In this document: piece by piece, positions 1 through 3,895 of the stretch | How the letters are laid out: every line of letters begins with the position of its first letter | How positions within the stretch are numbered: the stretch's first letter is position 1 | NCBI GenBank assembly: GCA_003144275.1 | Contig: NJBF01000102.1 | Location: 1-5,467, forward strand | Reading direction: 5' to 3' | Length of the DNA: 5,467 bases | Source of the DNA: Candidatus Heimdallarchaeota archaeon B3_Heim | GTDB taxonomy: Archaea; Asgardarchaeota; Heimdallarchaeia; Hodarchaeales; Hodarchaeaceae | Notes under the pieces: model-generated | Seen by the model: the letters and a program-made list of their open reading frames with translations, nothing else | The model's database searches: none | Told to the model about the DNA's origin: nothing | Program-made: the position numbers and the translations under genes

Positions 1-9
1 CCAGATCCC

Positions 10-126
10 CAAGTAGTCCCAATGGAAAGCACTCCTTCTCTGGTTGCTCCCCTGCCGGATAGCGGATGTGTGACTCATCCTGTCCAGAACTAGTTTTTAA
101 CTAGTTGTCTGACAAATTTAGTCATG
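10..126 (-). repeat. Copy 1 of a duplicated ~117-bp structured non-coding element (candidate ncRNA, cis-regulatory RNA or small mobile element); may extend past the left window edge
   Basis: Hand alignment to 2763-2878 gives 104/117 identical columns (12 substitutions, 1 indel). Stems on + coordinates: GGATG 64-68/CATCC 76-80; AACTAGTT 88-95/99-106; AGCA 28-31/TGCT 45-48; TGAC 110-113/GTCA 121-124. GC is about 46% (54/117), higher than the AT-rich flanks. The repeat is certain; strand and function are inferred. Confidence 0.9.
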
Positions 127-168
127 AGAGGGATAGGAAACGGTTTATTGAAGAAATTCAACGAGAAT

Positions 169-1853: not shown

Positions 1854-2525
1854 TCATTGGCTAGGATTCTTATAAAAATAGATTCCTTTGAGTAGTAACC
1901 ATAAAATAAATACACTGAACGCAGACCATTCAGTTAAATACGTTATGGTGTTATAATCGAATACGCTTGTGTATGTACCGAGGAATAAAAACAAAGCGAA
2001 TAGTAAACTTAATACTGCAGCTCCTGAAGCAAGGATGGGGGAATATTTTGGAATGGAGGGCTGAGTATTTTCAAGATACGCAAAAAGAATCATAGTTATA
2101 CCAAGGAAAAGGAAGATCAGTTGACCAAAGATCAAATGTGTGTCGTAAGCAGATTTTTTATTAGCATCAAGAGGGAAAAATGCTGTTAGAATTTGACTAA
2201 GGGCAGAAAGAACAGAAGTTCCGAAGGCTATCCACGTTAGGTTAGGGTTCGTGCCCTGCTTTTGCAATGAGCGGGTTAAATATAAATAGAAGGGTATAAT
2301 TACAATGGGCATAATAACCATGAATAGAAAAAAGATTATATCAGAACAATTGGGACCTACGCTCATATCACTTACAAAATTAGATAAAGGACTATAACTA
2401 GGATCAACCATGACATATAAAAAGAAAGCAAGCATTGATCCCCCGAATCCAACTATTACTGTCAAAAAAGCAAAATAATAACCATTTATTTTGTCAAAGA
2501 ATTTATCAATTTGTTCCATGATCAT
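1854..2525 (-). CDS. DUF998-family-like multi-pass membrane protein
   Basis: 223 aa with about 6 hydrophobic segments. YSPLSNFVSDMSVG follows TM1 (the YS..xx.ISDLG-type pattern of DUF998), followed by a G.FP-like FFP and a His before TM4 (THLIFG). Confidence 0.75.
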   Translation of the reverse strand: MIMEQIDKFFDKINGYYFAFLTVIVGFGGSMLAFFLYVMVDPSYSPLSNFVSDMSVGPNCSDIIFFLFMVIMPIVIIPFYLYLTRSLQKQGTNPNLTWIAFGTSVLSALSQILTAFFPLDANKKSAYDTHLIFGQLIFLFLGITMILFAYLENTQPSIPKYSPILASGAAVLSLLFALFLFLGTYTSVFDYNTITYLTEWSAFSVFILWLLLKGIYFYKNPSQ

Positions 2526-2527
2526 TT

Positions 2528-2538
2528 TTGTCTGACAA
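2528..2538. promoter_or_regulatory. Palindrome TTGTC-T-GACAA, candidate transcription-factor operator, 2 nt upstream of the DUF998-like ATG
   Basis: Perfect 5-1-5 inverted repeat. The identical 11-mer occurs at 105-115 and 2857-2867 inside the repeated element. Confidence 0.5.
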
Positions 2539-2627
2539 TTCCATAGTTCTCATATTCGCTGACCTCTCTCTCCCTTACAAACTTAAAAGGCGTCCCTCCT
2601 GTACTTCATCAACGCCGAGGTGATGAC

Positions 2628-2878
2628 AAAAAAATTTACTTAGCTCCTAGGTCATATTCCCTTGTAACTTCGTTAGACGAGTTACCCGTCAAAGGCAAGA
2701 GAAGAATGACCCAGACTGGTCAAAAAGTATTGGTGTCTGGGATGTCGCCAGAAGATCTGATGCAAGTAGTCCCAATGGAAAGCAACAATTCTCTTGTTGC
2801 TAACCTGCCGGATAGTGGATGTGTGACTCATCCGTTCCAGAACTATTTTTCAATAGTTGTCTGACAAATTTAGTCATG
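2628..2878 (-). ncRNA. Candidate ~250-nt structured RNA (repeat copy 2 plus a 3' structured extension ending at a U7 tract)
   Basis: Contiguous stems: repeat element 2763-2878; CCCAGAC 2710-2716/GTCTGGG 2735-2741; GGTCAT 2650-2655/ATGACC 2706-2711; TTCCCTTG 2657-2664/CAAGAGAA 2696-2703 (U-G on -, C.A mismatch on +); GTAAC..GTTAC 2664-2685. U7 tract on - at 2628-2634. There is no expression evidence. Confidence 0.45.
2763..2878 (-). repeat. Copy 2 of the duplicated structured element
   Basis: Same orientation as 10-126. Perfect hairpins: AGCAACAA-TTCTC-TTGTTGCT (2781-2801), GGATG-TGTGACT-CATCC (2817-2833) and AACTATT-TTTC-AATAGTT (2841-2858, GAAA loop on -). Confidence 0.9.
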
Positions 2879-3018
2879 GAAACAACAATGATAAGAAGAA
2901 ATTTTGGCAGGATCCATAGGTCCAAGGGAATCAAATAGAATGCTACGACGACGAGGACAAGTTGATGGAGTATATATGTGTTTGAAAAATATCTTAGAAA
3001 CGTCTTCAAAGAAGACAC
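2878..3018 (-). pseudogene. Remnant of the C-terminal part of an acyltransferase-3 (OpgC/MdoC-like) membrane protein
   Basis: LRYFSNTYILHQLVLVVVAFYLIPLDLWILPKFLLIIVVS resembles the (Y)xxYILHQxxxxxxxxY...xKF C-terminal pattern of acyltransferase-3 proteins as I recall it. The N-terminal bulk of such a protein is absent, and the frame runs straight into the repeat element. Confidence 0.45.
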
Positions 3019-3069
3019 TTGACATTATTTCTTCCGAAACTATGAATTTATGGTAGTCTCCCAAATACG

Positions 3070-3114
3070 TTTATATAGAGAAAAGCGAATGTACATACTA
3101 TCAAAAATATAAAA
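3070..3114 (+). promoter_or_regulatory. Archaeal TATA-like boxes upstream of the 53-aa/nucleotidyltransferase pair
   Basis: TTTATATA at 3070-3077 and TATAAAA at 3108-3114. The latter is about 35-40 nt before the ATG at 3149. Confidence 0.4.
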
Positions 3115-3148
3115 TATGGGCATTGAATGCTCAGAGTAGTCAAATTAT

Positions 3149-3310
3149 ATGGAGTTAAAGGCAATATTTTCATTCAAAAAAGATCGCCTAAGAGATTTAA
3201 GACAAGAAGGAGAAACTGCAAGAAAAATTTCTCCAGAACGAAGATTGAAAATTGTGTTTGAATTTCTTGAGTTTACAGAAGATTTACATAGAGCAGGGAA
3301 CAAAAAATAG
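3149..3310 (+). CDS. Small 53-aa protein, putative partner (antitoxin-like) of the downstream nucleotidyltransferase; absent from the ORF track
   Basis: ATG 3149 to TAG 3310 translates as MELKAIFSFKKDRLRDLRQEGETARKISPERRLKIVFEFLEFTEDLHRAGNKK. It is helical and charged with an ISPERRL motif, and ends 12 nt before the NTase start. Confidence 0.75.
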   Translation: MELKAIFSFKKDRLRDLRQEGETARKISPERRLKIVFEFLEFTEDLHRAGNKK

Positions 3311-3322
3311 GAATTTATATCG

Positions 3323-3895
3323 TTGAAAATCGAAACAATACTTCTGAAAATATCCAACTATTTTGAAGATAATGAAATCCCTTACGCTATCATTGGGGGG
3401 TTTTCAGCAATAGTGTGGGGACGTGGAAGATCAACTTATGATATTGATATAATTATTGACCATAAAAAGCTGAAAATCGCGGATTTTGTTGAATTTGTTG
3501 TCGAACAGGGTATGAAAACAAGTGAATACGAGTTGCAAGAAGCTTTCAAGGAGTTTTCGCATGCAACAATTCTCACAATGGATCCACCTTTTTATAGAGT
3601 CGATTTAAGAGGTATTTATTCCAGTTTAGACCGAGAAACAATTGAAAAAGCAGAAAAAGTCAAATTCAAAGATCAAAACATAAGTTTTGCATCGCCAGAA
3701 ACACTCATTGCCCACAAGCTACACTTTGGATCAGATAGAGATCTGGAAGATGCATTAGTTGTCTTTATTGCTCAAAGAGATGAAATGGATTTAGATTATC
3801 TGGTTTTGTTGAGCAATAAGCTAGGTGTAGGAAAAAAGCTTGAACGACTGATAGAAATTTCTCAGGAAGATAACGAATTACACTCCAAAGAGTGA
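3323..3895 (+). CDS. Pol-beta-superfamily nucleotidyltransferase, DUF6036 / AbiEii-AbiGii-like putative toxin
   Basis: TTG start, 190 aa. N-terminal YAIIGGFSAIVWGRGRSTYDIDIII carries the GG...RxTxDxD motif. VDL supplies a possible third acidic residue, and C-terminal LIAHKLHFGSDRDLEDA matches the K...RxxDxxD-type helix. Confidence 0.85.
   Translation: MKIETILLKISNYFEDNEIPYAIIGGFSAIVWGRGRSTYDIDIIIDHKKLKIADFVEFVVEQGMKTSEYELQEAFKEFSHATILTMDPPFYRVDLRGIYSSLDRETIEKAEKVKFKDQNISFASPETLIAHKLHFGSDRDLEDALVVFIAQRDEMDLDYLVLLSNKLGVGKKLERLIEISQEDNELHSKE

What the first reader, a model, noticed from the sequence alone, without database searches (positions are those of the whole stretch)
10..126. Unrecognised ~117-nt structured element duplicated 2.75 kb apart (10-126 and 2763-2878)
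Seen in sequence: there are two same-orientation copies, 104/117 identical, both outside intact genes. The differences cluster in hairpins and linkers, while the blocks CAAGTAGTCCCAATGGAAAGCA, CCTGCCGGATAG, GGATGTGTGACTCATCC and TAGTTGTCTGACAAATTTAGTCATG are invariant. In one hairpin, copy 2 has lost both partners of a G-C pair (AACTAGTT/AACTAGTT becomes AACTATT/AATAGTT) and the stem stays perfect. Read on -, the fold is UGAC-UAAAUUU-GUCA, then AACUAUU-GAAA-AAUAGUU, then CUGGA..GGAUG-AGUCACA-CAUCC..UCCGG, then AGCAACAA-GAGAA-UUGUUGCU. CUGGA/UCCGG pairs through U-G only on -, and the GNRA loop also falls on -, the same strand as the neighbouring genes. There are no terminal inverted repeats or target duplication. 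Inference: this is an undescribed ncRNA, riboswitch or ribozyme family, or a non-autonomous mobile RNA/DNA element. The copy 1 AGCA/UGCU hairpin is partly mispaired, so that arm is variable.
Basis: partly seen in the sequence, partly recalled or inferred. Interest (0 to 1): 0.8.

Follow-up and report, generated by a model that had tools for sequence, protein, structure and literature searches.

The report
TnpB transposon guide-RNA end module
The duplicated 117-nt "structured element" is the right-end, guide-RNA (omega-RNA) scaffold of a TnpB insertion-sequence family and its gene-less miniature copies in an Asgard (Hodarchaeota-type) archaeon, so it is a mobile-element part of a known kind and not a new riboswitch or ribozyme.

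Summary
Window 10-126 and 2763-2878 are same-orientation copies, about 89% identical, and the genome holds about 37-40 copies.

The interpretation needs correcting.
- The 117 nt are the last 117 nt of a mobile element. Homology stops sharply at ...TAGTCATG and continues on the other side.
- In five copies a 420-458-aa TnpB gene (OrfB_IS605 + Cas12f1-like TNB) on the window's + strand runs into the module. These elements are about 1.42 kb.
- About 20 copies, including window 2517-2878, are about 362-bp gene-less mini-elements with the same ends.
- Eight occupied/empty site pairs show insertion at a single (C/T)AT(G/A).
- Two hairpins in the module covary strongly.
- Position, length (the ISDra2 scaffold is 116 nt), orientation and a variable 3' flank fit a TnpB omega-RNA scaffold read on +, not -.

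Rfam has no match, and no RNA data were available. No Y1 TnpA, IS607-type TnpA or Cas1 was found, so the mobilising enzyme is unknown.

The family is confined to a few genomes of one Hodarchaeota-type genus. This scan had already reached the same reading on other contigs of this genome.

Verdict: a new member of a known kind, of modest interest.

The parts
10..126 (+). Copy 1 of the 117-nt right-end / omega-RNA scaffold module (M2). The upstream part of the element lies beyond the contig start.
   Evidence: Covariance-model hit of 132 bits. Contigs C41 and C86 share their first 126 nt exactly and then diverge, which marks an assembly break in a repeat. The 9 nt before the module resemble the full-length tnpB copies more than the mini-elements.
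127..146 (+). Flank directly 3' of copy 1. This is the inferred guide-encoding stretch of its omega-RNA; its length is assumed.
   Evidence: Sequence beyond ...TAGTCATG is unique in every copy. The guide role is inferred from ISDra2 TnpB (PMC10097598).
2517..2878 (+). Complete 362-bp gene-less mini-element (PATE/MITE-like derivative of the TnpB IS).
   Evidence: Homology to about 20 other 358-367-bp copies runs exactly over 2517-2878.
2517..2539 (+). Left terminal inverted repeat (CATGATCATTTTTGTC-T-GACAA...). CATG 2517-2520 is shared with the target and holds the ATG of the DUF998 gene on the minus strand.
2582..2625 (+). TATA-like box (CTTAAAAG, 2582-2589), then the remnant GAGGTGA ribosome-binding site and ATG (2623-2625) of the lost tnpB, followed by a 6-codon frame.
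   Evidence: The same layout precedes tnpB in full-length copies. Promoter function is inferred.
2660..2705 (+). Second conserved folded module (M1), homologous to a block inside the tnpB ORF. Its function is unknown.
   Evidence: 81-89% identity over 37 nt to codons about 212-224 of full-length tnpB. Synonymous-site identity there is 0.91-0.98 against about 0.72 elsewhere.
2763..2878 (+). Copy 2 of M2. P1 hairpin 2777-2805; GGATG/CATCC hairpin 2817-2833; P4 hairpin 2841-2858; terminal repeat 2856-2878.
   Evidence: Covariance-model hit of 123 bits. P1 and P4 covary.
2879..2898 (+). Flank directly 3' of copy 2. This is the inferred guide-encoding stretch; its length is assumed.
   Evidence: Unique flank. 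The role is inferred.
1854..2519 (-). Host DUF998 membrane-protein gene. Its start codon lies in the CATG at the element's left junction.
   Evidence: the Pfam DUF998 match covers profile positions 2-179 of 184.

Best explanation
The 117-nt repeat is the right-end module of a tnpB-only insertion-sequence family of a Hodarchaeota-type Asgard archaeon. Read on the window's + strand, it is the scaffold of the TnpB guide RNA (omega-RNA).

Shown:
- The module always ends exactly at the element's right boundary.
- In full-length (about 1.42 kb) elements the TnpB ORF runs into it on the same strand.
- In about 20 mini-elements of about 362 bp, including window 2517-2878, it is kept together with the left end, a promoter-like box and one internal block, while tnpB is gone.
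- Two of its hairpins covary.
- The last 22-23 nt double as one arm of a terminal inverted repeat.
- The elements are insertion-polymorphic at (C/T)AT(G/A) sites.

Inferred:
- The element is transcribed from the left-end promoter.
- The transcript is trimmed to about 117 nt of scaffold plus about 16-20 nt copied from the DNA just beyond the right end (window 127-146 and 2879-2898).
- TnpB made by the intact copies elsewhere in the genome binds it, in trans for the mini-elements.
- TnpB then cuts DNA matching that guide, so that an emptied site is repaired from an occupied copy. This is the homing/retention mechanism established for IS200/IS605 TnpB.

The enzyme that moves the elements is not identified.
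For: 1. Sharp boundary at ...TAGTCATG with unique DNA beyond in all copies; homology continues on the other side.
2. Frames of 412-459 aa end 14-32 nt before (one 10 nt past) the element end. Four tested frames carry OrfB_IS605 plus Cas12f1-like_TNB (E = 1e-17 to 1e-24). They are homologous to ISDra2 TnpB structures. RuvC motifs GIDLG and NADYNAA are present.
3. Full-length and mini-elements share only the two ends, the internal block and exactly these last about 117-120 nt. The experimentally defined ISDra2 omega-RNA scaffold is 116 nt and also overlaps the tnpB 3' end (PMC10097598).
4. Covariation on 51 distinct copies: 86.8% of cells paired against 74.8% in shuffles. There were 172 double-sided changes against 67 expected, and 0 of 500 shuffles reached this. 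All 12 pairs of helix P1 and 6 of 8 pairs of P4 show compensatory changes. Slid controls fall to 33-47% paired.
5. Synonymous-site identity in tnpB rises to 0.92-0.95 over the codons that overlap the module, and stop codons fall at different places in it. The constraint is therefore on the nucleotides, not on the peptide.
6. G.U pairs favour the + strand in P1 (23 G.U against 5 A.C). The single-base changes in the GTGACT/AGTCAT, TGTC/GACA and TGAC/GTCA pairings give G.U on + (4 G.U cells, no A.C or other mismatch; the GTGACT/AGTCAT pairing also carries an invariant G.T on +).
7. The module is absent next to the other TnpB genes in the genome, so it is specific to one TnpB clade.
8. Eight elements in relatives have empty sites in this genome, which proves mobility.
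9. PATE-like gene-less elements that carry omega-RNAs used in trans are described in PMC10055086. A tnpB 3' end lying within 250 bp of the transposon end is the general rule (PMC10691335).
Against: - No RNA data, so transcription, processing and strand are not shown.
- No Rfam family matches.
- The conserved C.A mismatch in CCGGA/TCCAG (22 of 25 copies) would be a U.G pair on the minus strand. The outer stem of M1 in one mini-element subgroup behaves the same way. G.U evidence on strand is therefore not unanimous.
- The pseudoknot that defines TnpB and Cas12 guide RNAs could not be demonstrated. The candidate partners are invariant, and one candidate (5' AUG with 3' CAU) is not conserved.
- The right end terminates in the same CATG as the target. 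A simple 4-nt CATG transposon-adjacent motif (TAM) would not let TnpB tell empty sites from occupied ones.
- The terminal 23 nt are also a transposase-type inverted repeat, so part of the conservation is DNA-level.
Confidence: 0.85

Rival explanations
1. The module is a purely DNA-level transposon end. It carries the terminal inverted repeat plus subterminal binding sites or hairpins for an unidentified transposase or recombinase, and makes no functional RNA.
For: The last 22-23 nt mirror the left end. Palindromic TTGTC-N-GACAA cores occur at both ends. 33-bp left/right-end fusion palindromes exist. In IS200/IS605 elements, DNA hairpins at the ends are recognised by TnpA (PMC10055086).
Against: The 94 nt inside the repeat (P1, the GGATG hairpin, P4) have no counterpart at the left end, so they are specific to the right end, as omega-RNA scaffolds are. 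Length and position match the ISDra2 scaffold. Wobble pairs in P1 favour one strand. No Y1 TnpA that would read DNA hairpins was found.
Confidence: 0.08
2. This is the first reader's view: an independent, undescribed structured ncRNA (riboswitch, ribozyme or sRNA) transcribed from the minus strand and duplicated near host genes.
For: The CUGGA/UCCGG helix is fully paired only on the minus strand. Single-sequence folds have somewhat better z-scores on the minus strand (-2.8 and -3.8) than on the plus strand (-2.3 and -2.0).
Against: Every copy is the end of a mobile element with unrelated flanking genes. The GNRA loop is not conserved. The consensus fold is better on + (alifold -18.3 against -10.9 kcal/mol). 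Distribution is patchy within one genus, as for insertion sequences. On the minus strand the RNA would begin in arbitrary flanking DNA.
Confidence: 0.03
3. Conservation reflects coding for the C-terminal tail of TnpB, and the hairpins are incidental.
For: In full-length copies the TnpB frame stays open through most of the module.
Against: Mini-elements keep the module with no ORF. Stops fall at different positions. Synonymous sites are the most conserved. Stems change by compensatory substitutions. The equivalent C-terminal residues of ISDra2 TnpB are disordered (PMC10097598).
Confidence: 0.02

Closest known systems
ISDra2 (Deinococcus radiodurans) TnpB omega-RNA / reRNA (PMC10097598)
   Same: An RNA scaffold of about 116-117 nt that overlaps the 3' end of tnpB on the same strand. 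It ends at the transposon right end and is followed by a variable flank that serves as the guide. It is multi-stem, and the protein carries OrfB_IS605 plus a zinc-ribbon TNB domain and is homologous to the solved TnpB.
   Different: No detectable sequence similarity and no Rfam hit. The stem layout cannot be mapped one-to-one. The pseudoknot is not demonstrable. The TAM is unknown. Here the right end finishes with the same CATG as the target, whereas the IS200/IS605 model uses separate target-side (TAM) and transposon-end (TEM) motifs (PMC10055086).
PATE-like minimal IS200/IS605 elements that carry omega-RNAs (Geobacillus stearothermophilus, PMC10055086; PATEs of Haloquadratum, PMC3119063)
   Same: Gene-less, a few hundred bp, and present in many copies. 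They share both ends with tnpB-bearing elements and keep the omega-RNA region, which would have to be used in trans by TnpB encoded elsewhere.
   Different: The ends here are inverted repeats. No Y1 TnpA was found in this genome or in the element-rich relatives. The mini-elements also keep a 45-nt block from the middle of tnpB.
IS607 family (serine-recombinase TnpA + TnpB; PMC6188088)
   Same: The occupied and empty sites fit exchange over a 2-bp sequence shared by the element ends and the target, with no longer duplication. tnpB lies at the right end.
   Different: IS607 elements lack terminal inverted repeats and use GG. Here there are 22-23-bp inverted repeats and a central AT. The only resolvase-domain gene in the genome has its catalytic domain at the N-terminus and sits among unrelated genes.
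DDE (IS630-type)-associated and solo TnpB elements with symmetrical ends (PMC10691335)
   Same: Inverted terminal repeats around tnpB. Solo tnpB elements are proposed to be mobilised in trans. The tnpB 3' end lies within 250 bp of the end.
   Different: No gene other than tnpB lies between the repeats in 5 local and 13 related loci. The shared dinucleotide here is AT.

Membership tests
TnpB omega-RNA (OMEGA guide RNA) scaffold | Lies at the 3' end of tnpB on the same strand, overlaps its end, and stops at the transposon right-end boundary | tested here: met
   TnpB frames end 14-32 nt before (one 10 nt past) the module's last base. The boundary is sharp in all copies.
TnpB omega-RNA (OMEGA guide RNA) scaffold | Structured scaffold of roughly 100-250 nt with conserved helices | tested here: met
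   117 nt. P1 and P4 covary, and 0 of 500 shuffles reach the observed values. The alignment was fitted to the model, so pair counts lean towards the structure.
TnpB omega-RNA (OMEGA guide RNA) scaffold | Variable guide segment directly 3' of the scaffold, taken from flanking DNA | tested here: met
   Flanks differ in every copy and equal the empty-site sequence. Use of the flank as a guide was not tested.
TnpB omega-RNA (OMEGA guide RNA) scaffold | Pseudoknot joining the nucleotides just before the guide to the 5' part of the scaffold (PMC10097598) | tested here: inconclusive
   GTGACT (hairpin loop) with the terminal AGTCAT is possible, and its rare changes give G.U on +. The columns are nearly invariant, however. 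A 5' AUG / 3' CAU pairing is not conserved.
TnpB omega-RNA (OMEGA guide RNA) scaffold | Expressed as RNA and bound by TnpB | not testable with these tools
   No run on record as RNA holds the sequence.
TnpB omega-RNA (OMEGA guide RNA) scaffold | Partner TnpB with RuvC catalytic motifs | tested here: met
   GIDLG (motif I) and NADYNAA (motif III) are present. The motif II position is E in the C61 copy and D in most relatives. Activity was not tested.
PATE / MITE-like non-autonomous derivative | No protein gene, both ends shared with an autonomous or tnpB-bearing element, many copies | tested here: met
   About 20 copies of 358-367 bp with the same ends as the 1.42-kb elements. Only a 6-codon remnant frame is left.
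IS200/IS605 (Y1 HUH transposase) family | Asymmetric ends without terminal inverted repeats; Y1 TnpA in cis or in the genome | tested here: not met
   22-23-bp inverted repeats are present. PF01797 was not found in this 94%-complete genome, nor in the element-rich relatives G107 and G165. The two Y1 loci found in the genus carry no such ends.
IS607 family | Serine-recombinase TnpA with an N-terminal DNA-binding domain; no inverted repeats; GG at the ends and target | tested here: not met
   The single resolvase gene has an N-terminal catalytic domain and lies among unrelated genes. Inverted repeats are present, and the core is AT, not GG. Only the 2-bp shared-core logic resembles IS607 (PMC6188088).
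Any Rfam family (riboswitch, ribozyme, sRNA) | Covariance-model match | tested here: not met
   The permissive scan of the whole window gave one chance-level hit elsewhere (ceN41, E = 2.2) and nothing on either copy. No tRNA or tmRNA was found.

The most novel reading that the evidence does not exclude
These tnpB-only elements have 22-23-bp inverted ends built on a TTGTC-N-GACAA palindrome. They insert at YATR with a shared central AT, and they leave 33-bp end-fusion palindromes. No Y1, IS607-type, Cas1 or in-element DDE transposase was found. They may therefore move by a transposase or recombinase not yet linked to TnpB, or one encoded on unassembled DNA. The nucleotide-constrained block M1 inside tnpB, which the mini-elements retain, could be a new cis-acting part of that mechanism or of omega-RNA biogenesis.
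Probability: 0.25. Interest if true: 0.65.

Novelty: new member of a known kind. Interest (0 to 1): 0.3.

Why it matters
The result removes a candidate 'new ribozyme/riboswitch' and replaces it with a concrete annotation. It gives the guide-RNA scaffold and the exact ends of an active, insertion-polymorphic TnpB element family in Hodarchaeota-type Asgard archaea, with about 20 guide-RNA-only mini-copies and about five intact nuclease genes in one genome.

The covariance model and boundaries allow clean masking and annotation of these repeats, which break the assembly at contig ends. They also define a compact archaeal TnpB/omega-RNA pair that could be tested as an RNA-guided nuclease.

The real open questions lie outside the original 117 nt. 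What mobilises these inverted-repeat, YATR-targeting, tnpB-only elements? What does the second constrained block (M1) do?

Tried and rejected
- Rfam permissive scan: nothing on the element. ARAGORN: no tRNA or tmRNA.
- Expression: no RNA holder was listed. Three libraries labelled metatranscriptomic but flagged 'probably DNA', plus one DNA run, were laid as contigs. They cannot show strand, ends or expression.
- Orthologous empty site for window copy 2: no relative holds the DUF998 flank at DNA level. The one flanking hit (G163) covers only window 3027-3332.
- A 2,635-bp pair of ends on C8 is not a larger element. It is a host M48-peptidase gene lying between a truncated left end and a 33-bp end-fusion palindrome.
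- The resolvase on C2 is not IS607-like. Cas1 was not found. The Y1 TnpA loci in G163 and G159 lack these ends.
- A pseudoknot between 5' AAUGG and 3' CAUG, at positions like those in ISDra2: the 5' partner is not conserved.
- Long-range pairing between M1 and M2: duplex energies are no better than shuffles.
- A 4-bp CATG target-site duplication, or IS605-style insertion 3' of a tetranucleotide: these fit the variant sites less well than a shared central AT. The sample is small: two informative empty/occupied pairs plus about six variant junctions.

Full report
OBSERVATION

The window is a whole 5,467-bp contig (C41) of a 3.95-Mb, 103-contig genome that is 94% complete. Window 10-126 and 2763-2878 are direct repeats, 89% identical. 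The repeat is far from unique. BLAST finds 40 places in the genome. A covariance model built from 27 copies finds 37, of which 35 match along the whole model with strong scores. C41 and C86 share their first 126 nt exactly and then diverge, so copy 1 sits at an assembly break caused by the repeat.

WHAT THE 117 NT BELONG TO

I aligned all copies with their flanks. On the window's + strand, homology ends abruptly at ...TAGTCATG (window 126 and 2878), and the DNA beyond is unrelated in every copy. On the other side homology continues.

In five copies (six long frames), a long frame on the same strand runs into the module and stops 14-32 nt before, or in one case 10 nt past, its last base. Four such frames were scanned. 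All carry OrfB_IS605 and Cas12f1-like_TNB (E = 1e-17 to 1e-24). They also match solved TnpB and Cas12f structures, including ISDra2 TnpB. The RuvC motifs GIDLG and NADYNAA are present; the motif II position is E or D. These full elements are 1.41-1.42 kb and hold only tnpB.

About 20 other copies are 358-367-bp elements with no gene. Window copy 2 is one of them, spanning 2517-2878.

Both size classes start with CATGATCA(A/T)(A/T)TTTGTC-N-GACAA and end with TTGTC-N-GACAAATTTAGTCATG. This is a 22-23-bp imperfect terminal inverted repeat, matching 20 of 23 positions in full elements.

Full and mini elements share three things: the left end (with a CT-rich tract and a TATA-like box ahead of the tnpB start), one internal block (described below), and exactly the last 117-120 nt.

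MOBILITY AND TARGET

The closest TnpB relatives (67-86% identity) are all in MAGs labelled Candidatus Hodarchaeota or Candidatus Heimdallarchaeota. The next best are about 35% identical and bacterial. All 13 related loci are again about 1.42-kb tnpB-only elements with the same ends.

In a sample of 150 genomes of the phylum, the model hits strongly only in two other genomes of the same genus. A DNA search of 21 genus genomes finds the element in seven others. This patchy distribution is typical of insertion sequences.

For eight elements in relatives, both flanks map to adjacent positions in this genome, so these are empty sites. Each empty site holds a single CATG, TATG or CATA. Each occupied site holds such a tetranucleotide on both sides. 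Where the target is not CATG, the outer base stays with the flank and the inner base is the element's: TATG becomes TAT(T)...CATG, and CATA becomes CATG...CATA. Junction variants within this genome show the same pattern: TATG occurs only on the left, and CATA mostly on the right. This fits exchange over, or duplication of, the central AT of a YATR target. It fits a 4-bp duplication or an IS605-type insertion less well, but the sample is small.

No Y1 TnpA and no Cas1 were found. The one resolvase-domain gene has an N-terminal catalytic domain and sits among unrelated genes. No extra gene lies between any pair of ends. The mobilising enzyme is therefore unknown. The genome is 94% complete, and repeats are often left unassembled.

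WHAT THE MODULE DOES

In TnpB systems the guide RNA (omega-RNA) is transcribed in the tnpB direction. Its scaffold overlaps the 3' end of tnpB and ends at the right end, and the next about 16 nt of flanking DNA form the guide. The structurally defined ISDra2 scaffold is 116 nt (PMC10097598). Across TnpB diversity, the gene's 3' end lies within 250 bp of the transposon end (PMC10691335).

The module here has the same position, orientation and length, and a variable 3' flank. It is the one part of the gene region (together with M1) that the mini-elements retain.

On 51 distinct copies from this genome and its relatives:
- 86.8% of pair cells are standard pairs, against 74.8% in shuffles.
- There are 172 double-sided changes, against 67 expected.
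- 0 of 500 shuffles reach these values.
- Slid controls drop to 33-47% paired.
- All 12 pairs of hairpin P1 and 6 of 8 pairs of hairpin P4 show compensatory changes (the alignment was fitted to the model).

The stretches between the hairpins are almost invariant. In the full-length genes, synonymous-site identity rises to 0.92-0.95 over the overlapping codons, against about 0.72 elsewhere. The stop codon also moves around within the module. The constraint is therefore on the nucleic acid, not on the peptide.

The module is not found next to the other TnpB genes of this genome, which fits a cognate pair of protein and RNA. Gene-less PATE-like elements that carry omega-RNAs for use in trans are already described (PMC10055086).

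STRAND

Hairpins alone do not tell strands apart.
- Wobble pairs favour + in P1 (23 G.U against 5 A.C).
- The rare single changes in the GTGACT/AGTCAT, TGTC/GACA and TGAC/GTCA pairings give G.U on +.
- The consensus fold is better on + (-18.3 against -10.9 kcal/mol).
That helix competes with an alternative fully paired TGTC/GACA helix.
- The GNRA loop cited for the minus strand is not conserved.

The gene context decides for + in my judgement, but no RNA data exist.

OPEN POINTS

The pseudoknot typical of TnpB and Cas12 guides could not be shown, because the candidate columns do not vary. The right end finishes with the same CATG as the target, so a plain CATG transposon-adjacent motif (TAM) would not distinguish empty sites from occupied ones. 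The TAM is unknown.

BEYOND THE FINDING

- The mini-element's second conserved block (M1, window 2660-2705) matches a block inside tnpB (codons about 212-224, just after the first RuvC motif). Synonymous-site identity peaks there at 0.91-0.98. It folds into a small branched structure with U.G pairs on the + strand in the full-length copies. Its role is unknown, and it shows no special complementarity to the 117-nt module.
- In one marine-sediment DNA run, related contigs pile up on M1 and on the core of the 117-nt module. This is consistent with these being the two most conserved parts of a wider family.
- Window copy 2 is inserted at a CATG whose ATG is the start codon of a DUF998 membrane-protein gene. 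The gene has thereby been cut off from its upstream region.

COMPARISON AND VERDICT

In function and position this is a TnpB omega-RNA/right-end module, and copy 2 is a PATE-like guide-RNA-only mini-element. It is not a member of IS200/IS605 in the strict sense, because it has inverted ends and no Y1 TnpA. It is not IS607 either, because there is no serine TnpA of that type, inverted ends are present, and the core is AT rather than GG. It resembles IS607 only in the logic of a 2-bp shared core (PMC6188088). It resembles the DDE-linked or solo TnpB elements with symmetrical ends described in PMC10691335.

Earlier agents of this scan reached the same reading on other contigs of this genome. I re-derived it here independently from the sequence.

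The finding is a new member of a known kind, of modest interest. The unexplained transposition chemistry and the M1 block are the parts worth following.

Noticed in passing
window 2660-2705 (and inside tnpB, e.g. L011:960-996): This is a second nucleotide-constrained folded block (M1), kept by the mini-elements and embedded in the tnpB ORF about 620 nt upstream of the right end. Synonymous-site identity there is 0.91-0.98 against about 0.72 baseline. Its function is unknown, and its hairpin loop carries GTCAGAC, the same 7-mer as the terminal-repeat core.
   Followed up: partly
window 2517-2520 / 1854-2519 (-): The mini-element is inserted at a CATG whose ATG is the start codon of a DUF998 membrane-protein gene. 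The gene is now separated from its native upstream region by 362 bp, and an in-frame ATG inside the element's left end extends the ORF by two codons.
   Followed up: partly
G000 C8:64499-64531, C35:1462-1494, C50:11147-11179 (L069:2901-2933): These are 33-bp palindromes made of the outer half of the left end joined to the outer half of the right end across the TTGTC-N-GACAA core. They could be products of recombination between the two cores, or minimal footprints.
   Followed up: no
G000 C57:96043-96188: A 146-bp micro-element consisting of about 95 nt of the left end fused to the last 51 nt of the right end, lying next to a metallo-beta-lactamase-fold gene.
   Followed up: no
G000 C88:109277-109868: A nested insertion: a mini-element sits in the opposite orientation inside the zinc-ribbon coding region of a tnpB copy of the same family, at a CATG.
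   Followed up: partly
window 3027-3332: A sharply bounded 306-bp stretch is 92% identical to one place in another genome of the genus (G163:C47), while the surrounding DNA is not shared. It includes a 53-aa ORF (3149-3310) just upstream of a nucleotidyltransferase-like gene (3323-3895). It may be a small mobile or toxin-antitoxin-like cassette.
   Followed up: no
G000 genome-wide: At least eight further TnpB genes of about 430 aa (e.g. C82:50848, C48:23053, C38:58152, C61:21743, C63:47743, C96:23849) lack this right-end module. More than one TnpB lineage therefore coexists in the genome.
   Followed up: no
window 1-126 and G000 C86:1-126: Two contigs begin with the same 126 nt, the repeat plus 9 nt. 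The assembler broke at this repeat, so copy 1's upstream part, probably a tnpB gene, is missing from the contig.
   Followed up: partly
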